Below the pieces are notes generated by a model, which made no database searches, had not been told where the DNA came from, and saw nothing but the letters and a program-made list of their open reading frames with translations. 64,000 nucleotides of DNA from Mizuhopecten yessoensis (lineage: Eukaryota). The first letter of the stretch is position 1, and each line of letters opens with the position of its first letter. The stretch is from assembly GCF_002113885.1 (NCBI RefSeq), contig NW_018407219.1:649218-713217 (forward strand), in the 5' to 3' direction. Positions 10,395-51,723 of the stretch are shown piece by piece. The translations under genes and the position numbers were made by a program.

Positions 10395-10969
10395 GTACAT
10401 GAAAAATAATTGTTTGATAGGGTTTATATGCAAAGGAGAAAATTGTTGAAGGCGTATCATGATTACACCATCACAAATTATCATGATTGACCAATCAAAT
10501 GCTACATTACATCTCAGATAAATAAATATTGATCAGAATATATATTACCTGGTAACCACATTCATGTAAACCACTAAGGGAGACTACTGAGTACAGTTTT
10601 ACTATTGTGATAGACAGAATTACAATTAATAGTATACATGTATTGCAATTGTCATGACAAAAGGTTTGAAGTACATTTTTGTCATTTCTGTTAGATTTCA
10701 CTGTAAATTTATTATAAATATTATCAGTAACGAAATGATAACAGTATATATATTTTTATAAATTGTACGCAAGAAAATTATCTGTTTTCTCATCAACAGT
10801 AATATAATGAGCAGTTGGAGAATGAAAAACTGGTAGAAATATCCTGTGTGTAACATATGAACTGTAACTAAAAATACTGCATACTGTGACCAGCCATCAC
10901 TTGTTAGCAAAATGGCAACCACCATATATGATCCTTTTCAACATTTCAACCTAATTTTGTTGTATTACT

Positions 10970-12533
10970 TTGGCACAGCCCTGCTATCAATATATTATCT
11001 GGATGGAAATGTATAAATCAGTTCCAACACTGGCACAGCCCTACTATCAATATATTATCTGGATGGAAATGCTTACATCAGCTCCAACACTGGCACAGTC
11101 CTGCCATCAGTATATTATCTGCATGGAAATGTATACATTAGTTCCAACACTGGCACAGCCCTGCCATCAGTATATTATCTGGATGGAAATGTATACATCA
11201 GTTCCAACAATGGCAAAGCCCTGCCATCAGTATATTATCTGGATGGAAATGTTTACATCAGCTCCAACACTGGCACAGCCCTGCCATCAGTATATTATCT
11301 GGATGGAAATGTATACATCAGTTCCAACACTGGCACAGCCCTGCTATCAGTATATTATCTGGATGGAAATGTATACATCAGTTCCAACACTGGCACAGCC
11401 CTGCTATCAGTATATTATCTGGATGGAAATGTATACATCAGTTCCAACACTGGCACAGCCCTGCTATCAGTATATTATCTGGATGGAAATGTATACATCA
11501 GTTCCAACACTGGCACAGCCCTGCTATCAGTATATTATCTGGATGGAAATGTATACATCAGTTCCAACACTGGCACAGCCCTGCTATCAGTATATTATCT
11601 GGATGGAAATGTATACATCAGTTCCAACACTGGCACAGCCCTGCTATCAGTATATTATCTGGATGGAAATGTATACATCAGTTCCAACACTGGCACAGCC
11701 CTGCTATCAGTATATTATCTGGATGGAAATGTATACATCAGTTCCAACACTGGCACAGCCCTGCTATCAGTATATTATCTGGATGGAAATGTATACATCA
11801 GTTCCAACACTGGCACAGCCCTGCTATCAGTATATTATCTGGATGGAAATGTATACATCAGTTCCAACACTGGCACAGCCCTGCTATCAGTATATTATCT
11901 GGATGGAAATGTATACATCAGTTCCAACACTGGCACAGCCCTGCTATCAGTATATTATCTGGATGGAAATGTATACATCAGTTCCAACACTGGCACAGCC
12001 CTGCTATCAGTATATTATCTGGATGGAAATGTATACATCAGTTCCAACACTGGCACAGCCCTGCTATCAGTATATTATCTGGATGGAAATGTATACATCA
12101 GTTCCAACACTGGCACAGCCCTGCTATCAGTATATTATCTGGATGGAAATGTATACATCAGTTCCAACACTGGCACAGCCCTGCTATCAGTATATTATCT
12201 GGATGGAAATGTATACATCAGTTCCAACACTGGCACAGCCCTGCTATCAGTATATTATCTGGATGGAAATGTATACATCAGTTCCAACACTGGCACAGCC
12301 CTGCTATCAGTATATTATCTGGATGGAAATGTATACATCAGTTCCAACACTGGCACAGCCCTGCTATCAGTATATTATCTGGATGGAAATGTATACATCA
12401 GTTCCAACACTGGCACAGCCCTGCTATCAGTATATTATCTGGATGGAAATGTATACATCAGTTCCAACAATGGCACAGCCCTGCTATCAGTATATTATCT
12501 GGATGGAAATGTATACATCAGTTCCAACACTGG
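10970..12533. repeat. Minisatellite, 60-bp unit, ~26 copies; core copies identical
   Basis: Exact 60-bp period; variants confined to the first ~6 and last ~2 units; explains the 534-aa repetitive ORF. Confidence 0.98.
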
Positions 12534-13754
12534 TACCATATTGGAAAAAAAATGTGTTTTTCTACGACACTTAACGGCTGCAAGATCTTCAGAATAAACT
12601 GCCTTAATTACCGCAACTGTTAATTATTGACATTGTCATCAATCTGTTTTATGTTGAGAACAGATTTTGTCGTAACAATTAGTGTTCACGCTTGGTGTGG
12701 AGGTTTGTCTGTCACAAGTACCAGCATCACTGTTACTTTTAATTTGTATACAGTACAAAGGTTATCTATTTAGTGAAGAGTTTTTACTGTAGGATGCTTT
12801 CATCAATGTCCAGTCAGGATTGTGGTGTTTGTTACTGATGTATTTGTGAATTGTTACACACAAACAATAAATGACATTGTACTTTTTCTCTGTTGGTTTA
12901 TTATATAAATATAATGCCTCCATGCAGGCACTTTCCCTGTTATGTTATTGAATGATTGGAAATCTGAGCGGTCTGCCCAATACTTGAATTGAATGACAGG
13001 TGATCTGCACACTCCCTTGCATATATAATCTTGCCTCATTAGGCGTTAGTTTTGTACACAAGTTGCTGTATAGTTGCTGTGTATTTTTGGTTTTAATTTT
13101 TAAACTGCATTTTAATTAATTTTATTCCTGACCAATGAGTTTAAGTTACCAAGGGAACTTTCTATAGTGTAACATACAATTGCTATTGGGACTACCACTT
13201 TCACGATAAGTTGATCCCCTATCGACTTATCATTACACCACTATAAACAATATTTCTATTATATCTTAAGGAAGACATATAAAAAGGATTAAGGAAACCT
13301 CTGGGCAATATGCTTCATTTGCATAAATTCAATATGGCCACTGCATGAACATACCATTGCTCTAAGCTATTAGCTCAGCAATTTGAAGTGGTGAAATGGC
13401 TTTTTTGTCTCAGGAATAGATTTTAACTACTTTGAAATTGTATTTGATGGTTTAAATTTAATGACTGAAAATAGAACTGGGAAAAAGTGAATGTGGTACC
13501 CCCTTTAAAAGACGTTTTCTTGTGTGATAATGCTCTCAGCACTATACTTTGGATCTCAATAGGTTCTTTCTCTTTTCCTGATTCGCCTGTGAAATCTGCC
13601 ACCATAGCTGTTGGAAACATATTAAACAACAGACAAACACACTACATGTGTCTGTAGTATTATATTTTTAGAAAAAATGTAAATGGGGCAGCACAATGTT
13701 AGTACTCCCAAAACATTTCTTTTATGTAGTCATTGGGAGCAATTAAACCTTTTA

Positions 13755-22158: not shown

Positions 22159-22916
22159 TGCCATTGTCGAGGAGTGTTCCCTTTACTTGCCATTGTCAAG
22201 CCAGCCAAGAAGTGTCCCCTTTACTTGCCATTGTCAAGCCAGCCAAGAAGTGTTCCCTTGACTTGCCATTGTCAAGCCAGCCAAGAAGTGTTCCCTTGAC
22301 TTGCCATTGTCGAGCCAGCCAAGAAGTGTTCCCTTGACTTGCCATTGTCGAGCCAGCCAAGAAGTGTTCCCTTGACTTGCCATTGTCGAGCCAGCCAAGA
22401 AGTGTTCCCTTGACTTGCCATTGTCGAGCCAGCCAAGAAGTGTTCCCTTGACTTGCCATTGTCGAGCCAGCCAAGAAGTGTTCCCTTGACTTGCCATTGT
22501 CGAGCCAGCCAAGAAGTGTTCCCTTGACTTGCCATTGTCGAGCCAGCCAAGAAGTGTTCCCTTGACTTGCCATTGTCGAGCCAGCCAAGAAGTGTTCCCT
22601 TGACTTGCCATTGTCGAGCCAGCCAAGAAGTGTTCCCTTGACTTGCCATTGTCGAGCCAGCCAAGAAGTGTTCCCTTGACTTGCCATTGTCGAGCCAGCC
22701 AAGAAGTGTTCCCTTGACTTGCCATTGTCGAGCCAGCCAAGAAGTGTTCCCTTGACTTGCCATTGTCGAGCCAGCCAAGAAGTGTTCCCTTGACTTGCCA
22801 TTGTCGAGCCAGCCAAGAAGTGTTCCCTTGACTTGCCATTGTCGAGCCAGCCAAGGAGTGGTCCATTGATTTGCCATTGTTGAGCCAGCCAAGAAGTGTT
22901 CCCTTGACTTGCCATT
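22159..22916. repeat. Minisatellite, 38-bp unit GCCATTGTCGAGCCAGCCAAGAAGTGTTCCCTTGACTT, ~20 copies
   Basis: Identical central units; the stop-free minus strand gives three frame-cycling ORFs. Confidence 0.98.
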
Positions 22917-23077
22917 ATACCATATAACTCTGTTAACAATGTTATGTAAGCATTTCACACTCTCCCTGTCAGCTTACATTTCTCTTGTTAGGTAGCTTAG
23001 CAGTCAGTTTAAGTAACAAATTAACCTCGACAAAGTTCTTGGTGATCACACATGACCTTCAATGAAAGTCATCTACC

Positions 23078-27626: not shown

Positions 27627-27864
27627 GGGGGTTGTTTTGTGGAGATCTTGAGGTACCGTATATTAGGGGCTTTGTTTTATGGAGAGGTACCGTATATTAG
27701 GGGGCTTTGTTTTGTGGAGAAGTACTGTATATTAGGGGGCTTTGTTTTGTGGAGAGGTACCATATATTAGGGGCTTTGTTTTATGGAGAAGTACCGTATA
27801 TTAGGGGGCTTTGTTTTGTGGAGAGGTACCGTATATTAGGGGGCTTTGTTTTGTGGAGAGGTAC
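27627..27864. repeat. Minisatellite, 34-35-bp unit (GGGGCTTTGTTTTGTGGAGAGGTACCGTATATTAG), running into the assembly gap
   Basis: ~7 copies before the Ns; GGGGGGGCTTT resumes after the gap. Confidence 0.93.
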
Positions 27865-28006
27865 NNNNNNNNNNNNNNNNNNNNNNNNNNNNNNNNNNNN
27901 NNNNNNNNNNNNNNNNNNNNNNNNNNNNNNNNNNNNNNNNNNNNNNNNNNNNNNNNNNNNNNNNNNNNNNNNNNNNNNNNNNNNNNNNNNNNNNNNNNNN
28001 NNNNNN
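27865..28006. other. Assembly gap (142 N)
   Basis: N run. Confidence 1.
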
Positions 28007-28827: not shown

Positions 28828-31453
28828 CCCAGCAGGTAACACAACATTTATTCAACGTTGAAATGAAGTTGTAATTTGGTCGCGACGTTGATTGATTCAA
28901 CGTTATTTTTTCAATGTTGAAATGTTGTTGTAATATGACGTTTAAACAACGTTGATTAATTTGATTTTGTTTAACCTTATTGACAACGCTGAATCTCAAC
29001 GTTGAATCAACATAGATTCAACGACCTGTTTTCAATTGTTAATGATATCCTATATTTTATATTTGGTTATTATATATAGAAACATCACGATTATCATTGT
29101 CATAGGTAAACAAAATGGAAAGTATCATAACTGTGCACACATTAATATCTACTGGAGGATTTAAAATCATTTTGTTGAAATTATGAGGAAATTGAAAGAA
29201 TTAATTTAAATCTAGAGTCATTTTCTTTTGTTATTTTGACTAAGTATAAAATCGCCAATGTTTCTTTTTCAGGGAGTTTAATTTAACTTATTACTCTTAC
29301 TTTATAAATAATGATTTACAATTTTGTGATTTATTTCATGTCTGCCTATGTAGACTGATTAGCTCCCTTACTCTATGTGATTCGCCGCCTGGTGGAACTT
29401 TAGTTGCGCATGCGTCATTAACTCTATCTTTTTAAAAACGTAAGCAATCGCAGGCCATACAAAATTGGAAGTGGAACATAAACCCATATAAACCTAACAT
29501 GCAACTGCAGATGATTGCAATGAAGTGCTGCATTACAGTAAAAGGTAAGTGAAATAGGATGTCTTGATTAATCAACTCTGTGATATAGTACATGCATGTA
29601 TTATATCTGTAAGAATATATAAATGTAAGATATGGTCTACCGATTCCCGGACTTTCAGAGTTTAAAATAATTTCAAATCTGATGTGAATTTAAAACCTGG
29701 AGGTCCCGATATTGTAAGGCCGATTCACACTTGCAATACCAACATGAAACAGCAATTAAAAGCAGTTTAATATGACATATATTCAAAGCACAATGTTTAT
29801 TTGGTTGCCCAGGCAAACGGACAGTGCACACTCCTATGCACATGTGTATAAACTCACTGTTATCGCTGCTATCATAAACTGGGTCTCGCACCCGTTGGCA
29901 AGATACACGCCTCTGAGTAGCAACTGCGTTTGCAACCATGTGTTGAAATAAATGCACACAAAGAAGGTAGACTTAGTCACTTTCTTTATATGTTCTTATT
30001 TAAATTTATGAATGGTCGATTTATTACGATAATATTTCCTTAACGTAAAATTTGCGCATTAGTGCACACTTTTTAAGGTTAATATTTATATATTGTCATC
30101 TCAAAAAGAGGTGTGCATTATACGCAGGAACAAGTCATTCTTGGGTTATTGTTCTCGAGTTTCTGGTCCGCCATATTGGATTACCTCCCTACAAATAGTT
30201 TTGTTTGGAGTCGTCGGTCATATATGATAAGATTGGCGACACAATTTTTACCTACTCTAAAAAGATTAAAATCTGTAATCTGTGGTCATGACTGCTGATT
30301 TGGCGACAAACACTAGCTGGGCACAGGTAACATTTCTATGGGTTAGTTGACCAGAGGGCATAACCACCGATGCCATCTGATCCTCGTAGGATCGCCATGC
30401 TTCAGCGAAAATTATTGAAACTTCTCAACACCACAGTTAATACAATGCAGTAATTAACTAACACTGTATCAGTGATTACCGATTAACAATAGCTCTACTG
30501 CAATTTAATTGAAATTATTTGCAGTCGCGATTGAGGGACAGTGTTGTTTTCATTCCTCAACACGTGGCGTGTCGAAGCTCTACTGCACTAGCTGTTAGAA
30601 CTACAGACTGATTTGATCGTAAAGGTATTATAAAAAATATCTTTATACTAGAAGCATGAACATTCAATACATTCCCTTCAAATCTACTCGAAGGGAAAAA
30701 ATAAAAGCAGAATACACTATTTTTATGATGCATCTTTTTAAAATATTGAAATCATTCACGAGGTTATCGATTGGTAAAAAAAACCCAGAACTAACATGGA
30801 ATGAAGCCTATCTTTGAAACACTACATTCTCATAATTATGGGAAAACCGCAAAGATGTCGAAACATAAGTTGATCGGCGATTCTCTGGCATTGAAATTAG
30901 CTACACTTTCTTCTTTTGGTTTCTGCAGATCATCCACTCGTTCCACTCGTACGGAGGGAGACCTTCATGGGCTTGTTCACTCCAATAAATCAATCGTTAA
31001 TTAATCGGCGTTATAAACACCAAGCTACATTAGAAGCTACTTTTCCAGTAAGATACCAGTTATTTTTATAAGAACAAATGATGTGGAAAATATTTGACCA
31101 GTGATCATTGAAATAAATTTATATAATAATGATAATAATATAATTTATATCTTTTGCAGAAGCTGTCTAACTGCCACTTGTATGTAGGTGATGCATTCCA
31201 AGAGTTAGATATCCAAAAACCTGATGCTTACCCCAGATAAACATGATGGAGATGGGCCACAAGCTGCTGATTACAGGTTGTTTAGAGAAGTAAAATGTTA
31301 CTCAAAACAGTGTGCTGTTGTCTGCTTCTTTGTTGAACGTTGAATTTTGGTATGTTGTTTCAACTTTCACAATCAAATATAAATTAAACGTTTAAACAAC
31401 ATTTGGCTTCAACATTGAATAAACCTTTATTCAACGTATATGTACCTGCTGGG
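28828..31453. mobile_element. Non-autonomous EnSpm/CMC-like DNA transposon
   Basis: TIR CCCAGCAGGTA / TACCTGCTGGG; TT on both flanks (2-bp TSD); clusters of (C)AACGTT(G)-type subterminal repeats at 28850-29025 and 31330-31440. Confidence 0.75.
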
Positions 31454-32371
31454 TTTGGTACAACAATTTGCAGGAATTATATGAAGAAATAAAACAATAT
31501 CACAGATATTTGACTTATAGCTACGGGAAAATGTCCTGTCACCACAGTGAGTGTCACCTTCAAATCACTATTTGATAATTATTCATAGATGTCTGCTACA
31601 AATGGAGTTGGTGTTAAAATAAAGGCTGCTTCCCTTGATCTATACCAAAAATAATTGCAAAGAATTATAAGCTATACAGTTCTGTAGATTCATTTTTACT
31701 TGGAGTATTTCATTCTTTATTGACGATGCAGCAACAAAAAAGAGTTTTTCTGACTTACACTTTATTTATTTCCTTAAAGTCTTTTTTCCTTTTGATGTTG
31801 TGTATTTACATTTCCAAGAAAGCAACAGTATAGGTAAAGTGTCAGGGTTCACATCAGGTAGGTCCACCTCAACCCCTGTATACTCTTTGTTTCTATTTTT
31901 ATTTCTATAAGTACTTATTTCAAACAATTGTTACTCTGTAAAATGCATCACAAGATCTGACTTACTCTTAATACTTCTATTGAAATAGCTGTAAGACAAA
32001 TATTTTATAATATTGATGATGATAACGATGTATCCTTAATTGATGGTGTGCTTTATCTTAAAGTCTCATACAACTGAATCAATGATTCTATAAGTGTATC
32101 ATACGTTTGTCATTCCGAACTGAAATAGGACAAGGTTTAAAAATACTTTGGATTTGAAGGATTTATAAAAGTATATTTACATTTGTGCTGCAACTCACTA
32201 TGTGAACAGTACCAGCAGAAATGCATTTCATTTGAGTATGAAAGCAAAATATTTTGTTACATAACACGCGGTTTACTTATGACGTCATAGACTAACCTTG
32301 TTCAATGAGAGTCTTTCACTTCGCTTCTGATAACATGGAGAATGCCCAGGTCCACCTCAACCCCTGTACTC

Positions 32372-32600
32372 TTGAAAAACTTCTTGATGTAAAAATTGAC
32401 AACAGTTTATCTTGGTTAGATCACATAGCATCTGTTGTTTCAAAGATTAACAGTGGTTTGGGTTTACTTCGATGCATCCGTCAATATTTACCACTTTCAG
32501 CTAGACTTAAATTTTTTCATGCATGTATTTTTCCCCACTTCATGTAAAGTAGCACAGTATGGAGCGGATGCTCTTTAAATCTTCTACAAACACTGTCAAA
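32372..32600 (+). pseudogene. CR1/L2-clade LINE reverse transcriptase C-terminal fragment
   Basis: Translation EKLLDVKIDNSLSWLDHIASVVSKINSGLGLLRCIRQYLPLSARLKFFHACIFPHFM*SSTVWS fits the KxLGVxIDxxLxWxxHI ... YCSxVW region; in-frame stop. Confidence 0.8.
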
Positions 32601-32626
32601 AGCGCATTCATACCGGCATCAAAATT

Positions 32627-33581
32627 AAACAAGAGGCCCATTTGTAACAAAGGTAACTTGCATTGAACTACATGTAATGCAAAAGTAGTGAGAAAGATGT
32701 ACTATGTACAAATAGTGGTTTTGTCAGTCAGCTGAATTTTGGTAAAGCACCTTAAGACCCTTCCATCTATGAAGAGTATTTGATTTCTACCATATCTGGA
32801 TCTTGAGAAGAAGATTTTGAAATTTTAGTCAATTTGACCCTTTTTGGCCCGACCCTCAGACCCCTGGGGACCAGTTTACCCCCTCCCTAAGGGTGAAACG
32901 TGAGACGTACCCCAGGGTCATGAAATTCACAATTTTGGCAGAGCATATTGAGACCCTTCCATTCATGAAGAGTATTTGATTCATATATCAGGATCTTGAG
33001 AAGAAGAGTTTTGAAATTTTAGCCAATTTGACCCTTTTTGGCCCCGTCCCTCAGGCCCCTTGGGGTCAGTCAGGGCTGATTTGTGCATATCATTAAACTG
33101 CTATCCAATACTGGTAATGCTAACTAAGTTTGAATTAATTCCAATGGAAATTAAACAATGCTGGTCAAAAATGTGATTTCCTTATATAAACTAAAGTAAA
33201 GTTTACCCCCTCCCCAGGGGGAAACGTGAGACCCCATGCAGGGTCATGAAATTCACTTTTACGATAAAGCACCTTAAGACCCTTCCATCTATGAAGAGTA
33301 TTTGATTCTACCATATCTGGATCTTAAGAAGAAGATTTTTGATATTTTACTCAATTTGACCCGTTTTGGCCCCGCCCCTCAGGCCCCTGGGGGCTGGGGA
33401 CCATATAATTCACAAATTTGGTTGAACTTTGGCCATGGAAGGTTTCTGCAAAATTTCATTGAAATTCTTTCAAGGGTTTTGGAGAAAAAGTCGAAAATGT
33501 AAATTGTTTACGGACGCACGGCGGACAAAATGCGATCGCAATAGGTCACATGAGACTTAATTTGTCTTAGGTGATCTAAAA
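32627..33581 (-). mobile_element. HINE (second family) adjacent to the LINE fragment
   Basis: AAACAAGAGGCCC terminus; internal repeats (GACCCTTCCAT..GAAGAGTATTTGATTC at ~32757, 32953, 33279); (GGAC)-like tract; terminal hairpin TAGGTCAC..GTGATCTA. Confidence 0.7.
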
Positions 33582-33729
33582 CCCGCTGTTCCATCCCTAT
33601 ATGGAATCGCTTGTTAACTTTCAGCAATAGAATTCTGGAGACTGGAAAGATGATATGTCAAAAACCTGCAAAATAGGCCTTTTGTATTCTTCATCAGGTA
33701 CATTTATGTATGTATCGTATCTATCCATC

Positions 33730-33838
33730 CAATCTAATTAAAATCATATCTTCACTTCGCTCCCGTTTTCTGATATGTCGCGCTTCAACGCGATTTATTA
33801 GAAAACTGACCGATGTGAAGATACTTTTCATTAGATTG
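33730..33838. mobile_element. Hairpin MITE with 9-bp TSD (Mutator-like)
   Basis: CTATCCATC at 33721-33729 and 33839-33847; the whole element is an imperfect palindrome CAATCTAAT...TCGCG / CGCGA...ATTAGATTG. Confidence 0.8.
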
Positions 33839-35016
33839 CTATCCATCTAGACAGTTGTCACTAGTTTAGAAATGTATATATATCAATGCTGGCAGCTGAC
33901 GTGTTTCGTAGTAGTCTGTGGTGTGTGTTAAATAATGTCTGTGTCCTTATTACACTCCAATCTGTCATAAAAAAAATCTAATCCTACAAAAAATATTAGA
34001 CATCAAAGGAGCAGGTTTTAATTTCATTTTTAGCAAGGAAGGACTTCTTTAGAAGCAAAGGATTCTATTGTCTTAATCAACCTTTTACCCATTAGACAAA
34101 TTACATTTCCGGGGCCATGTGATCTAGATCTGATTGAATCTAGCTGCAGCTGCAGCCATGCAAACAAATACCCCATATTTTATGTACGCAAATAATTGCT
34201 TCTATCCTTTTTTATCTTGTTGATCTGAAACAACTATTTTCAAAATCAGAAGATTTTACACTGACCAAAATGTTACCATAAAAGTACCTGTAATTCATTA
34301 AAGCAATCTTCAAAGCACCGAACACACGTCTGTTATGTACGTGGCAAACAAAAAAACAGCATCTAATGGAAATTAGTCTACTGCTTATCATGATATCACT
34401 GTGTTTTATAATTCTGCATTTCTAACCTGCTGAATGGTTCACAAGATTGATAGACTGTATAGATGTCTGGCCCAGCAATGCTAATGCATGTCACTCATAT
34501 GTTCGTCTCGACACCATCAAATACCATTTACATGAGTTATCTCCCTGTAAATAAGACAATAACGCTGCCAAGATAAAAAGTTTTATATTATACTGTTTCA
34601 AAATGCGTTTAAAGGAAATCACCATTTATTGAAAACCTTTCAGACCTCAGTAACTATCAAACCTTTCCTTTCTAATTGAGATGTTATGCCAGAATATGTC
34701 GGAGAGTAGCCTGTGGGAATGATTTATCATTCTAAGTATTTATGGCTCTTCATGACATCTTTAGTAATCACACACTCACACATTCATAATCAATAAGCAC
34801 TATGTATTTCCCAGATAATTAGTGCTGCCCCAATTTAGTAACTGACAAATTAATATTTTATAATTGTGACAGATGAACGTTTCATATCTGTGACACATGA
34901 ATAAAAGCGTTTTGGCTTGTCCTATTTTTAAAACTATGCTTTAACTCTGCTATCTCTAACCAGCCCTGGATCGCCATGAGGTCACAGTGACAGTGTTGGA
35001 TTCCGATGGCATGGGT

Positions 35017-35113
35017 AAGACTTCTGTTGTCATGACTACTTGTGTTGTCAAGACTTCTGTTGTCATGACTACTTGTGTTGTCAAGACTTCTGTTGTCATG
35101 ACTACTTGTGTTG
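35017..35113. repeat. 33-bp tandem repeat x3 (dimer of 16/17-bp subunits)
   Basis: AAGACTTCTGTTGTCATGACTACTTGTGTTGTC repeated. Confidence 0.93.
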
Positions 35114-35564
35114 CACTTTTCAACAAGTGTCTAAAATAATTGTCTGGATATTGTTTATTTCAGAGCAGCTCTTGGTGAAAGTAATGATTGTCTAAAACAT
35201 GTTAATGCTAAATGTTTGTATGTGATATAACGAGTAGTTAAAGTGTAATATCTAATTAAAATCACATCTATCATTACACTTTGTTCTGTAAACACTGTGT
35301 ACTTCATATAACAAAGCTAAAGATCTGGTTATAATTAGATTGACTTAAAGATACCCGTGCAATGTGACCACAAAAAAGTCCCCCTTAAGAACAGGAGAAA
35401 AGCCCATTAAATGTTGGAAATAAATATCTGAAACCTAGTTCACTTGAAAGGATCAAGTCGAAGTAATAAATACAATATTAGGGATTCAATAATGATGCAG
35501 GTCAGAATTCAGACGACAATGTACAGGGGAAATTATGAGAAGTTCTTTTTACACAACCAACAAA

Positions 35565-35628
35565 ATTTTCTATGTGACGTTTCGATGACTAGCACGATAT
35601 GTACACTGTCACCTTCATCAGACAAATG
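35565..35628 (-). ncRNA. Minimal type I hammerhead ribozyme motif (inverted copy)
   Basis: Plus-strand TCATCAG 35615-35621, GTTTC 35579-35583 and GAC 35576-35578 are the reverse complement of the same intact core. Confidence 0.7.
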
Positions 35629-35651
35629 ACCAATGAAGTGTATGCATTGGT

Positions 35652-35716
35652 CATTTGTCTGATGAAGGTGACAGTGTACATATGGTACTAGTCATCGAAA
35701 CGTCACATAGAAAATG
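35652..35716 (+). ncRNA. Minimal type I hammerhead ribozyme motif
   Basis: CUGAUGA 35659-35665, stem II GGUGAC (35667-72) / GUCAUC (35691-96), GAAA 35697-35700, CGUC with predicted cleavage after C35704, stem I UGU/ACA plus CAUUU/AAAUG. Confidence 0.75.
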
Positions 35717-37599
35717 GTATTGGTTGTGTAAAAAGAACTTCTCATAATCCATACTTACCAACCTGAAGAAAATATTTAGAAGTAAAGGGGAAATGTTTAA
35801 TCATATGTATTATAGATTGATATGAAGTATGAATCCTTAAGTCACTACATCTCATGGTTAGAGGCTAAATGCATAGGTTAGGGTCGACAAGAACAAGTGT
35901 TTTGCTTTGTGAGTAATTGGAAGCCCTGTAAAACTGATCTCTCCAAACGCAGTCAAATGGAAGTCATATAAAAACAGAGTAGGCTTCAAACAGTAAGTTG
36001 TTTGGGTTCCCGAAAAGAACGGGTGATTAACTGGTTTGGAATTAGCCGTCAAGTGTTTCCATCAATATTAAATCAACTGTTTGAAACGTTACAGATCTGC
36101 AATATGAAAGTAAAGGGTAGCAGAGAATGATCTAATAAAACACAGTTCAAATTATATACATTTTACTTAGCTTTCAATTGGTCGGTAAAATTCACCAACT
36201 GCTTTTTATCAAATTCTGTAAAATGGAACTGTTCGCACTATAATCCCCACTGAAGCAATGAGTGAATTTAATATCCTGTGAATCTTTGAAAAACATGTCA
36301 CATATTTACAGTAGGTAAAATCTCAGACAAGTGACAATTAATTAACATGCATCAAATATGTCCTTGAAATTCGCTAAAGCAAATATTTAATGAGGTGAAA
36401 ATGTTGCAGTTTATATATATAGATACCATATCTGCAGAATTGTTTTGCACAAGTCATGACCCTGGGTCCCAACATCAGCGTTATATACAGCCAAACCAGT
36501 TCATGCGACCACCTCCTTTTAAAGCTTGTAGTTTTCAGGGAGTCTGCCAATTTCTGGTATGATCTATATACTCAGTATCTTATTTAATAAATTTACAGGA
36601 AAATTAATGAAGCAAATTGACATGTTCATGCATGGTAATGTTTTGCGGACATGCAGTTTCTCCACGTCATTGTGAATACACTGTGTCAATGCAACTATCT
36701 TTGGTATAAAACAAAATTACCAGCTTCCATTACTATGTATGTCGGACTTTTACTGAGAAAGCTTTCTCCTGTAATGTACGAGCCATATGCGTCCCTATTT
36801 GCTGCTATTGTCAGTTCAAACCTTTCCATAGATGGCCAGGATTAACTGTTTACAGAGCTCACTGGTCAATGCAGTCGGAGCTCATTTGCAGATATTTGCC
36901 CCTAATCATCTCTCCAGGGAAGAACACCTTCTTTTGAGAACACCCATGGACATTAAAGTAAGAATGGAGTAGTTTTAAATTAGGTTTTACATTGAGTATT
37001 TACAAGCAGTCTGCCTCTTTCCCTGGACATATAATTGGCCGGTGGGTAATAGGTGTTCGATGTGTTTACCCCATGTCACATGGTACTTGGTCAGGAAGCT
37101 CTGAAATAATGATGAAGTGACATTCCGGAAATCAAAGCAAGCCAAGGAAAAACCTGTTAATTGTCAGATTTCGGTAAGGACAAAATCAATATCTCTAACT
37201 AGATGGACTGTCATTCATGGTCACCATTTGGTCATCTTATAAGGCCACTTACAACACCAGAAGTATAAGCTACGCAAGTGTTGCCATGGTAAAAAAACAA
37301 ATAGCAGTCCTTATTTTTATTCTCTCACCACCATCAGTTTTCTAGCCTCTGATTAGAGAAGATTGCAAGAATGATTAAGGTTTTTATTCCTTTGGCTGTA
37401 TCTTCCAAAAATGTATGAATATACTGCATAATTTTCAACCTCTAAACAAACATACTGCATCTTAGAATCTTTGCAAAGATGTTATGTAAAAACCACCCTT
37501 TTTATTTGTTCAATTATGTGCACATTGCTTGCTTAAATGTATAAAAGTGATTGTAAGCCTTTGTTTTTTGTTTTCACAATTATAACCGTTACTATTATC

Positions 37600-37687
37600 C
37601 ATATATGTTGTAAAGCGCTTTAGAGTAATTTTACAAATTATATATGGTGCTATATAAATGTTGTATATTATCATTATTATTATTATT
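37600..37687 (+). mobile_element. LINE (L2/CR1-clade-like) 3' tail
   Basis: TGTAAAGCGCTTTAGAG...GGTGCTATATAAATG followed by (TAT)n. Confidence 0.6.
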
Positions 37688-37974
37688 CAAATCTCTCACT
37701 ATAATACAACTAACTATCTGTATTATAATCTAGCTCTCATTAGTATAAAGATGTAGCACAGTCAAATCTCCCAATATTATACATAGTGCAGATAATAAGA
37801 AAACATTCTCAACAGAAAATGTATGTCTTATAGTCCTTGTACATCATCACGCAGGTGTCAGTGTCCTACTCTTATATATAGTTAAGGTTGTATCCTATCT
37901 AAAATATAATACCTGTGATTAATGTGAGAGTTGCCTCCCTTAATATTTTGTCAGTAAGCAGTATCTAATGCTCC

Positions 37975-39166
37975 AGAGCTATAACTGTAATGTAGAGGCT
38001 GACTCCACCCTGTGTACGATACACAACACAATAATTAATCTCTATACCTGATCCTCCCTCTAGAGCTGTTATGTTGAGGCTAACTCGACCCTGTGGACCA
38101 TACACAACACAATAATTAAGCTCTATACCTGATCCCCCCTCTAGAGCTGTTATGAAGAGGCTAACTCGACCCTGTGGACCATACACAACACAATACTTCA
38201 TCTCTATACCTGATCCACCCTCTAGAACTGTTATGTGGAGGCTAACTCGACCCTGTGTGCCATACACAACACAATATTTAATCTCTATACCTGACCCTCC
38301 CTCTAGAGCTGTTATGTTGAGGCTAACTCGACCCTGTGGACCATACACAACACAATAAATAATCTCTATACCTGATACTCCCTCTAGAACTGTTTTGTAG
38401 AGGCCAACTCGACCCTGTGTACCCTACACAACACAATAATTCATCTCTATACCTGCTCCTCCCTCTAGAACTGTTTTGTAGAGGCCAACTCGACCCTGTG
38501 TACTATACACAACACAATAATTCATCTCTATACCTGATCCCCCCTCTAGAGCTGTTATGAAGAGGCTAACTCGACCCCGTGTTTTATACACAACACAATA
38601 ATTCATCTCTATACCTGCTCCTCCCTCTAGAACTGTTATGTAGAGGCTAACTCGACCCTGTGTACCATACACAACACATTAATTAATATCTATACCTGAT
38701 CCTCCCTCTAGAGCTGTTATGTAGAGGCTAACTCGACCCTGTGTACCATACACAACACAATAATTAATCTCTATACCTGATCCTCCCTCTAGAACTGTTA
38801 TGTAGAGGCTAACTCGACCCTGTGTACCATACACAACACAATAATTAATCTCTATACCTGATCCTCCCTCTAAAACTGTTATGTAGAAGCTAACTCTACC
38901 CTGTGTACCATACACAACACAATAATTAATCTCTATACCTGAGCCTCCCTCTAGAACTGTTATGTAGAGGCTAACTCCACCCTGTGTACCATACACAACA
39001 CAATAATTAATCTCTATACTTGATCCTCCCTCTAGAACTGTTATGTAGAGGCTAACTTGACCCTGTGTACCATACACAACACAATAATTAATCTCTATAC
39101 TTGATCCTCCCTCTAGAACTGTTATGTAGAGGCTAACTCGACCCTGTGTACCATACACAACACAAT
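37975..39166. repeat. Minisatellite, 81-bp unit, ~14.5 copies
   Basis: TCTATACCTG every 81 bp (38041, 38122, 38203, 38284...); unit length divisible by 3 gives repetitive ORFs. Confidence 0.97.
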
Positions 39167-39369
39167 ACCGGGAAGTGTTTGCTGCAGGTTAACTTTCGCC
39201 TTTTTTTCCCTCTGTAATGAGGGCGATTTTATCATTACAGCCAATATAGGTAAATAGCGTAATAAACGTAGTAATTAAATGTGGAGGGCGAAATCAACAA
39301 TGGGTGAACATTGATCTTATTGGCAAAGGGCGAAAGTTTGACTGAGGGCAAAAATGTGCTGGTATACAG
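39165..39369. mobile_element. Degenerate MITE between two satellites
   Basis: Imperfect TIRs TACCGGGAAGTGTTTGC..AACTTTCGCC / GGCGAAAGTT..GCAAAAATGTGCTGGTA; internal GGGCGA repeats. Confidence 0.6.
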
Positions 39370-50353: not shown

Positions 50354-51723
50354 CTAGCGGAAAAAAGAAACTGTGCATGAGGAGAATTGTTATAGAACAT
50401 GTATTACCAACTGAATATACATGAAAATTCACACACATGACCGAATATGACACATACACACTATCGGTGTGTCATTGACAGTTTTTCCCGTGCAGTTTGC
50501 TCTCTATATATAGGCGTTACCAGTTTGCACGTTTTTCTCGTCCAGCCATCCAATTCGACAATGACAGTTTATTTTTCAACTGTTGGGTCACTCTGTTGAG
50601 ACCAGTAAACAGTAAAAACAGCATTATAACGTTTTAATTTGTGATTAATGCTACGCAGAGGCTCAATGAAAATGACCACTTTCAGATTATTGGTATGCTT
50701 CACGCTGGTATGGGCCAAGCTGTTGTCTCAACACGTTTTCATGTCCATCGAAACACAACCCGGGACAGTTTGGCCACGTCGGCGATCGACCTTGTGCGGG
50801 ACATCCACGTGTGATGTCACGTCAACAGGACAACCATTTTTTGGCTTATCCATTTGTGAAATTGCTTCCAAACAACAAGTTTGATATCCGTCCGCAATGT
50901 CCTGCAATCCGCCCAGTTCTTCTGCCACGTCATCATGTAGCACGTCTTGACTGGTGCAGAAGGCATCTGCGATTTACTTGATAGGATTGGGCAGGCATTT
51001 TGTTCATAGTAGTGACGGCCGTTCCAGAGTGTATCGTCGCGTTGGAGAACGTTTCCGTGATGTGTGTGTGGTACAACAACGTTCTTTTGGCGGAGGCAGC
51101 GTTATGATTCGGGGCGGCATCACAGCCAACGGGAAAACGCCTCTTGTGGTTGTTAACGGGAATTTGAAGGCGCTACGTTACCATGACGAGATCCTCCGGA
51201 CCCACGTCGTTCCATTCGTGCAAGGGCAGCAATGTCACATTACGCTACAGCAGGACAACGCCAGGCCACGTACACACAGCTCGTGTCACTATGGACTTTC
51301 TGGTCCAGCAGAACGTTGAGGTGTCGCCCATTGAACTTGTCTGGGGTGAAATGAAGCGCAGATTACGGGCATTACCTAATCAACCGGTGACGTTGGCTGA
51401 TTTGCCTGCAGCGTTGGTACAGATCTGGAATGCCATCCCACAAGCATTCTTGAACCGTCTGATAGGCTCCATGCGTCGACGTTGCCGGGCTTGCATTCAG
51501 GCAAACAGTGGACATACAAGGTATTAACTTTGTGGACTCAGTATTGACCCCTGCTGTGTGTATGTCACTCCTGAGCGGAACTTATTGATTCCATAACGTG
51601 GCAAATGGAATGCAACTGTTAATGAATAACAAATAATGGTCCCTGAAAACCTTGTTGTTCTACGTCATACACATTAATTTTTATAACACATTTTAGGCAT
51701 GCACAGTTTCTTTTTTCCGCTAG
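50354..51723 (+). mobile_element. Tc1/mariner DNA transposon, both ends intact, dead transposase
   Basis: Perfect 26-bp TIRs CTAGCGGAAAAAAGAAACTGTGCATG (50354-50379; 51698-51723), TA flanks within a (TA)n tract. Confidence 0.95.
50648..51527 (+). pseudogene. Tc1-family (DD34E-type) transposase pseudogene
   Basis: Across frames: HTH-like IIGMLHAGMGQAVVSTRFHVHRNT, SDGRSRVYRRVGERF, FGGGSVMIRGGI, QQDNARP, SPIELVW, SMRRRCRACIQANSGHTRY*; frameshifts and deletions of the first-Asp and WPxxSPDL segments. Confidence 0.92.

What the first reader, a model, noticed from the sequence alone, without database searches (positions are those of the whole stretch)
35532..35748. 217-bp palindrome carrying an intact hammerhead ribozyme core on each strand
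Seen: two ~104-bp inverted arms around a 9-nt spacer. Each arm has CUGAUGA-A-stem II-GAAA-CGUC. The ~5 arm mismatches lie outside the catalytic core (two in the stem II loop, three distal). Established: minimal type I hammerheads with a palindromic ACGU in place of stem III occur in Penelope-like element termini and need dimerisation to cleave. Inference: this is an extremely truncated PLE insertion. A transcript from either strand would carry one sense ribozyme locked in a ~100-bp hairpin with its own antisense, so it could act as a self-silenced ribozyme and a dsRNA/endo-siRNA source against its family.
Basis: partly seen in the sequence, partly recalled or inferred. Interest (0 to 1): 0.7.

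Follow-up and report, generated by a model that had tools for sequence, protein, structure and literature searches.

The report
Mirror-image Penelope retrotransposon stump
This 250-base mirror-image sequence is one ordinary short insertion of a very common jumping gene (a Penelope-like retrotransposon): two copies of its end joined head to head, each carrying a predicted self-cleaving RNA that would be zipped shut in a hairpin, and it was likely built by copying RNA onto both cut ends of the target DNA.

Summary
The palindrome is real: 104-nt arms, 5 mismatches, a complete minimal type I hammerhead core in each arm. It is the terminal repeat (pLTR) of a Penelope/Poseidon-type retrotransposon with at least hundreds of copies here, tied to RT and GIY-YIG remnants. 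The insertion is larger than reported (35532-35781): a 33-nt tail on the right arm only, an 11-13 bp target duplication and a 2-nt junction overlap. This architecture is published, as are opposed minimal hammerheads and siRNA from inverted Penelope copies; this scan noted it before in many other genomes. Here 98 of 104 head-to-head pairs carry exactly one tail and 78 of 98 have a duplication of 10 bp or more. The tail-less arm is as often the longer one, and 32 of 56 pairs differ at a two-base polymorphism, which argues against simple fold-back copying and suggests priming from both DNA nicks, often on two different RNA templates (a local mutation hotspot is the rival). The intact cores show no sign of selection. 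Nothing here supports a special siRNA or ribozyme role for this locus; cleavage and small RNAs were not testable.

The parts
35521..35531 (+). Left copy of target-site duplication (11 bp, 13 if 35532-35533 are counted)
   Evidence: Matches 35782-35794 with one mismatch; 78 of 98 family pairs have such a duplication of 10 bp or more against 1.5% of shuffled flanks
35532..35646 (-). Left arm: tail-less pLTR 3' part, family positions -10 to 104; includes the '9-nt spacer'
   Evidence: Full-length 115-nt matches at 96-97% elsewhere in the genome; alignment to a family copy
35576..35621 (-). Minimal type I hammerhead core of the left arm (C3 at 35621, predicted cut after 35576)
   Evidence: Pattern scan and pairing check; activity untested
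35645..35646 (.). 2-nt overlap (microhomology) at the head-to-head junction
   Evidence: Left copy ends at -10, right copy starts at +1 with overlapping coordinates; 36 of 98 pairs overlap by 1-8 nt
35645..35748 (+). Right arm: pLTR 3' part, family positions 1-104
   Evidence: 1534 first-look candidates, 40 scored, best others 96-98%
35659..35704 (+). Minimal type I hammerhead core of the right arm (stem II 35667-35672/35691-35696, palindromic ACGU 35700-35703, predicted cut after 35704)
   Evidence: consensus features as in PMC4209133; activity untested
35711..35718 (+). Variable 8-nt quasi-palindrome (family positions 67-74); holds the two-base polymorphism at which the arms differ
   Evidence: Minor-allele fraction 0.39 and 0.35 at positions 72, 73 against a median 0.03 elsewhere
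35749..35781 (+). 33-nt Penelope 'tail', on this arm only; in the family it runs into the ORF start (ATG at 35772-35774 reads ATA here)
   Evidence: In L032/L207 the tail continues into an N-terminal reading frame ahead of RT remnants; 3' ends are bimodal, 137 arms at 101-116 and 207 at 126-139, 4 between
35782..35792 (+). Right copy of target-site duplication (to 35794 if 13 bp)

Best explanation
This is a dead, heavily 5'-truncated head-to-head insertion of a Penelope/Poseidon-type retrotransposon, likely built in one event when both nicked strands of the target DNA primed reverse transcription of the element's terminal repeat. Shown: family membership, link to RT and GIY-YIG remnants, one-sided tail, target duplication, junction overlap. 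Inferred steps: (1) the element's endonuclease, probably as a dimer, nicks both strands 11-13 bp apart; (2) one 3' end primes at the tail site (position about 138), the other at the short site (about 104); (3) both cDNAs stop early (at +1 and -10) and are joined through a 2-nt overlap; (4) repair leaves the duplication. The two arms here probably came from two different template copies (two RNAs, or the two terminal repeats of one RNA). The hammerheads are passengers of the repeat; any read-through transcript makes the antisense arm first, so the ribozyme is predicted never to fold. The locus most likely has no function.
For: 28 of 30 RT-selected loci carry the arm, 24 of 30 with an inverted arm upstream (read); RVT_1 E 2e-6 and GIY-YIG E 1e-3, both under Pfam's cut-off on broken copies; tail continues into the ORF in L032. 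One tail in 98 of 104 pairs, two in 4, none in 1, unclear 1 (P about 1e-24 against independent ends). Duplication of 10 bp or more in 78 of 98, mode 13, control 1.5%. Tail arm reaches further 5' in 29, tail-less arm in 31, equal in 7 of 67 clean junctions. Shorter arm stops within 200 nt upstream in 66 of 67 pairs. 32 of 56 pairs differ at positions 72/73, 8 by two changes, against about 1.7 expected from the 0.75% background; discordant pairs share fewer non-majority bases elsewhere (6 in 2734 sites against 18 in 3219, P 0.03). An Anolis PLE protein nicks and extends both strands, is predicted dimeric and starts at two sites that bound the tail (PMC11167929). Core bases 3.0% diverged against 3.8% for neighbours, P 0.064.
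Against: The two-template step is not clean: positions 67-74 form a quasi-palindrome, 2 of 67 pairs hold it in reverse-complement forms and the polymorphism is poorly linked to subfamily markers, so a mutation hotspot may explain part of the discordance. Paired arms usually belong to the same subfamily (position 97: both 16, one 6; expected 5.5 and 33) and 11 of 67 share a rare 8-mer (0.8 expected), so many insertions used one template or one master. 84 of 151 pattern-picked intervals show no partner arm within the 1.5-3.2 kb fetched. No empty allele was seen, so the duplication ends are inferred. No intact ORF was found. Four pairs have two tails.
Confidence: 0.85

Rival explanations
1. Same origin, but the locus now works as a hairpin-RNA source of endogenous siRNA against its family.
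For: Very stable predicted hairpin. In transgenic D. melanogaster siRNAs match the inverted parts of Penelope copies (PMC3681739, passages). Present in 4 of 4 DNA runs laid.
Against: One of at least 104 such pairs, 28 of 98 no longer than 260 bp; divergence like its neighbours; the upstream 160-200 nt of the repeat, where a promoter would likely lie, is missing; no small-RNA data.
Confidence: 0.12
2. The inverted arm arises by fold-back self-priming of a single cDNA or antisense template, as proposed for Adineta Penelope, and arm differences are later hotspot mutations.
For: Proposed in PMC3846280 (passage). 11 of 67 pairs share a rare 8-mer, and variants seen only in the two arms of one insertion occur.
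Against: A fold-back copy of one cDNA should be contained in the first arm, yet the tail-less arm is longer in 31 of 67 junctions, this locus included; 8 of 56 pairs differ by two changes.
Confidence: 0.12
3. A fold-back DNA transposon or MITE whose long terminal inverted repeats were captured from a Penelope end and that moves as a unit.
For: Long inverted repeats with a target duplication.
Against: Junctions differ at every locus, spans run from 94 bp to over 2 kb, ends are asymmetric and duplications vary from 10 to 19 bp; no second copy of this junction among 238 intervals (read).
Confidence: 0.02
4. Assembly artefact (fold-back read or collapsed repeat).
For: Palindromes are prone to misassembly; no single contig spans the whole stretch.
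Against: In four independent DNA runs contigs run from the unique left flank into the left arm and from the tail into the unique right flank; arms differ at 5 sites; tail and duplication follow the family rule.
Confidence: 0.01

Closest known systems
EN+ Penelope-like elements with an inverted pLTR, one-sided 30-40 bp tail and TSD (Pen2a_Av and others, PMC3846280; fig. 2 legend and text of PMC8557442)
   Same: Inverted 5'-truncated copy, tail at one end, tail continuous with the ORF start, target duplication, overlap at the junction.
   Different: No ORF left between the arms; 250 bp in all; duplication mode 13 bp here against 8-10 bp in the Adineta examples read.
Minimal hammerheads of metazoan PLEs (PMC4209133)
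   Same: Extra base between positions 9 and 10.1, G10.1-C11.1, palindromic 15.2-16.2, long stem II, short stem I; dual motifs on opposite strands about 100-700 bp apart are reported there for Schistosoma.
   Different: The two cores here are only 37 nt apart; stem I has a 5-nt bulge after 3 bp; activity not tested.
Poseidon of Anolis carolinensis, PAc (PMC11167929)
   Same: RT plus C-terminal GIY-YIG without linker Zn finger; two 3' ends that bound a tail; hammerhead in the pLTR.
   Different: In PAc the ORF begins at stem II and the start sites lie about 111 nt or more into the ORF; here the predicted start codon lies in the last 11 nt of the tail. In the parts read and a word search that paper does not link the two sites to inverted insertions.
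Inverted Penelope copies as siRNA sources in Drosophila (PMC3681739)
   Same: Inverted repeat able to give double-stranded RNA.
   Different: There siRNAs were observed; here none could be examined.
Twin priming of LINE-1 (recalled, no call)
   Same: Both target strands prime cDNA synthesis and the products join through microhomology.
   Different: LINE-1 inversions split one RNA into non-overlapping parts; here both arms repeat the same terminal segment.

Membership tests
EN+ Penelope-like element | Terminal repeat lies 3' of an RT followed by a C-terminal GIY-YIG endonuclease | tested here: met
   Family copies: RVT_1 E 2.1e-6, GIY-YIG E 9.5e-4, below curated cut-offs because copies are broken; order RT, EN, arm
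EN+ Penelope-like element | [quoted passage not shown] | tested here: met
   VYKIGCKNCDASYIGETG, then two histidines in EHRK and ITDHA, in translated copies; criterion from PMC8557442
EN+ Penelope-like element | Partial tandem pLTR-ORF-pLTR | tested here: met
   L207: direct repeats with hammerhead at 1731 and 4016, tail and ORF start after the first; this copy has an internal deletion and stops
EN+ Penelope-like element | Inverted 5'-truncated copy, 30-40 bp tail at one end, variable TSD | tested here: met
   98 of 104 pairs, 78 of 98 duplications; this locus fits
Penelope/Poseidon clade | No CX2-5CxxC finger in the RT-EN linker | tested here: met
   Read by eye in the 265-aa frame of L111 and in L062, L271
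Penelope/Poseidon clade | RT groups with Penelope/Poseidon in a tree | not tested
   No reference PLE sequences were fetched; PDB search gave 0 hits
Minimal type I hammerhead (min-HHR) | Core boxes, extra base after A9, G10.1-C11.1, palindromic 15.2-16.2, stems I and II | tested here: met
   against the consensus in PMC4209133
Minimal type I hammerhead (min-HHR) | Self-cleavage as a dimer or with protein help | not testable with these tools
   Indirect test, pile-up of 5' ends at the cut site, negative: 6 of 224 ends at 59-63
Rfam hammerhead families | Score at gathering threshold | tested here: not met
   0 hits; stem III is missing, as in all min-HHRs
Hairpin endo-siRNA locus | Transcription through both arms and 21-22 nt reads | tested here: inconclusive
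   Only contigs of long-RNA or guessed-RNA runs, no strand, no small RNA
MITE / fold-back DNA transposon | Fixed ends and internal structure shared by many copies, fixed TSD length | tested here: not met

The most novel reading that the evidence does not exclude
Penelope integration is an asymmetric double-priming reaction on two RNAs: one subunit always starts at the tail site, the other at the short site, and in this family half or more of the inverted insertions join cDNAs from two different template copies. The palindromic minimal hammerhead could be what pairs the two RNAs, as a retroviral dimerisation signal does, so that it serves packaging as much as cleavage. Thousands of such palindromes would then be a genomic record of two-RNA integration complexes.
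Probability: 0.2. Interest if true: 0.55.

Novelty: new member of a known kind. Interest (0 to 1): 0.2.

Why it matters
The locus itself is an ordinary transposon relic. Its value is as one of about a hundred sampled insertions that constrain how Penelope elements build inverted repeats, a step the literature read here calls undefined (PMC8557442): exactly one tail, either arm longer, and arms that often differ at a family polymorphism. If the two-template reading holds it would favour double priming over fold-back self-priming and give the dimer-dependent hammerhead a testable second role.

Tried and rejected
Rfam: no hammerhead model scores; miRNA hits only reflect the hairpin. Selection on the ribozyme core: not significant, and 5 mismatches miss the core by chance half the time. 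Idea that the two arms are reciprocal recombinants (GG and TT): dropped, TT is a common family form. Pile-up of 5' ends at the ribozyme cut (lead from earlier notes): not seen; 41 ends fall in 53-82 against 18 in 23-52 and 32 in -7 to 22 of 224, no sharp peak at 61, a peak at 74 is likely alignment trimming at the variable patch, and the sampling favours short arms. Empty allele: none among the joints shown in 4 DNA runs; 47 joints were not shown. Transcription: low-depth contigs cover the unique left flank up to or into the arm in 3 of 4 RNA or guessed-RNA runs (depth 8.1, 3.4, 2.5), without strand, and DNA may be present; no splice-like joint in 29000-37800: no conclusion. Host gene: no obvious coding exon among 48 frames of 90 aa or more, read by eye, not scanned. 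Sigma-70 scan irrelevant for a eukaryote. PDB search empty; Atlas gave no answer; first Pfam scan hit RT only, 1 of 5 pieces. A tail-sharing sister family was looked for among 17 arms starting after position 77: they are truncations or deletions of the same family. Literature searches; none of the listings or passages read describes two-template building of inverted Penelope copies, but subscription papers and supplements were not seen.

Full report
Observation. The inverted repeat is at the stated place: arms 35532-35635 and 35645-35748, 104 nt, five mismatches, nine bases apart. Each arm holds CUGAUGA, one extra A, a 6-bp stem II opening with G10.1-C11.1, GAAA, CG and UC; the predicted cut follows 35704 on the plus strand and 35576 on the minus strand. 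Stem I has 3 bp, a 5-nt bulge and 3-4 further pairs. These features match the minimal hammerhead consensus of metazoan Penelope-like elements (PMC4209133, parts 1-2 of 4 read). Rfam has no model that scores. The hairpin folds at -164.7 kcal/mol, z -24.8.

Family. The arm is a repeat: 1534 first-look candidates, 290 exact matches of one 26-mer and 268 of another, controls 0. Upstream of other copies lie reading-frame remnants with YVDD and VYKIGCKNCDASYIGETG. Of 30 loci chosen by the RT sequence, 28 carry the arm and 24 carry an inverted arm upstream (read). Pfam gives RVT_1 (E 2e-6) and GIY-YIG (E 1e-3), both under the curated cut-off on broken copies; 2 of 4 pieces had no hit. Two cysteines between GIY and YIG and no linker finger fit the Penelope/Poseidon clade as defined in PMC8557442 (passages); no tree was built. 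One copy (L032/L207) is a partial tandem in which the repeat continues through a 33-nt extension into the ORF start. No intact ORF was found among the 282 loci.

True extent. The insertion runs from 35532 to 35781. The left copy covers family positions -10 to 104 and includes the 'spacer'; the right covers 1 to 137; they overlap by 2 nt. The right arm alone has the tail. An 11-13 bp duplication with one mismatch flanks the whole. Contigs of four DNA runs from four studies join both unique flanks to the element; no empty allele appeared among the joints shown.

Family rule. In 238 merged intervals I found 348 arms; their 3' ends are bimodal (137 short, 207 tailed, 4 between; tail-biased searches inflate the second class). 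Of 104 head-to-head pairs 98 have one tail, 4 two, 1 none, 1 unclear (P about 1e-24). 78 of 98 have a duplication of 10 bp or more, against 1.5% of 1500 mismatched flank pairs. 28 of 98 span 260 bp or less; 49 pairs keep both ribozyme regions, 11 of them within 330 bp. 67 of 151 pattern-picked intervals show a partner arm within the flank fetched. The sample is partly chosen by likeness to the window's arms. The architecture is published: inverted pLTR, optional tail on one of them and TSD in PMC3846280 (passages) and PMC8557442; opposed minimal hammerheads 100-700 bp apart in PMC4209133. Earlier notes of this scan report the same in at least 45 other genomes (unchecked); none lies near this locus or matches its sequence.

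Mechanism. PMC11167929 (parts 1-2 of 4, word search) shows that an Anolis PLE protein nicks and extends both strands, is predicted dimeric, and starts at two sites that bound the tail. The one-tail rule is what follows if each nick uses one of the two sites (inference). Fold-back copying of one cDNA, or self-priming as suggested in PMC3846280, predicts that the second arm is contained in the first and identical to it. But the tail-less arm is longer in 31 of 67 clean junctions, the tailed arm in 29, and 32 of 56 pairs in which both arms show TG, GT or TT at positions 72/73 differ, 8 by two changes, where background change predicts about 1.7 and near 0 (20 further pairs with rarer forms and 22 that do not cover the site were left out of this count). 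Against a pure two-template reading: arms nearly always share a subfamily, 11 of 67 share a rare 8-mer, the polymorphism sits in a quasi-palindrome that also inverts, and it is poorly linked to other markers. For it: discordant pairs share fewer non-majority bases elsewhere (P 0.03), and pairs that share a rare base agree at 72/73 in 11 of 15 against 23 of 61 (P 0.02). A mixture of one- and two-template builds fits best; two templates may be two RNAs or the two repeats of one RNA. At this locus the arms read GG and TT, which needs one change under two templates and two under one. The shorter arm ends within 200 nt upstream in 66 of 67 pairs, as expected if it runs off the RNA 5' end.

Ribozyme and siRNA. 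Stem II forms with probability 0.99 in the arm alone and 0.00 in the full transcript; on either strand the antisense arm is made first, and the two cores lie on opposite strands, so they cannot dimerise in one RNA (from the sequence). The cores show no sign of selection: 118 of 171 arms keep all 12 core bases at 3.3% mean divergence. 5' ends do not pile up at the cut site. siRNAs from inverted Penelope copies are reported in PMC3681739 (passages), so the idea is plausible for the family but not new; here only low-depth, unstranded contigs touch the flanks. The bioRxiv preprint 10.64898/2026.07.22.740005 was seen only as a listing and a word search without relevant hits. No supplements were read; those of PMC11167929 and PMC4209133 may bear on the mechanism.

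Verdict. A real but ordinary relic of a known kind. Interest 0.2; the two-template hint is the only part that may add to what is in print.

Noticed in passing
window 35751-35759: The tail holds ATACTTACC, so its minus strand reads GGTAAGTAT, a perfect 5' splice-site consensus (match to the U1 5' end recalled, no call). It is the family majority (98-102 of 107 tails per base), no better kept than the rest of the tail. Could bear on antisense transcripts; may be chance.
   Followed up: partly
window 35711-35718 and family positions 67-74: 8-nt quasi-palindrome just 3' of the ribozyme cut with many variants, including exact reverse-complement forms, twice within one insertion.
   Followed up: partly
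L138 (G000:C657, about 1339300-1339490): The start of the tail is amplified into a short tandem array of about 24-nt units next to a family copy.
   Followed up: no
L207 (G000:C76725:567000-573000): Partial tandem copy with both terminal repeats and the ORF start, but with an internal deletion and stops.
   Followed up: partly
window 50676-51527: Broken Tc1/mariner-like transposase in several frames, recognised by eye from QQDNA and SPIELVW motifs; not scanned.
   Followed up: no
window 32500-33700: Very high-copy repeat with a 66-nt direct repeat and very deep cover in RNA-run contigs.
   Followed up: no
window 37898-39190, 10955-12620, 22196-22973, 35017-35115: Tandem arrays (81-nt unit at 37.9 kb, 33-nt unit at 35.0 kb, others seen as repetitive frames).
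   Followed up: no
window about 27860-28000: Run of N.
   Followed up: no
L195:3-650: 216-aa frame of an unrelated non-LTR-type reverse transcriptase upstream of a family copy, judged by eye.
   Followed up: no
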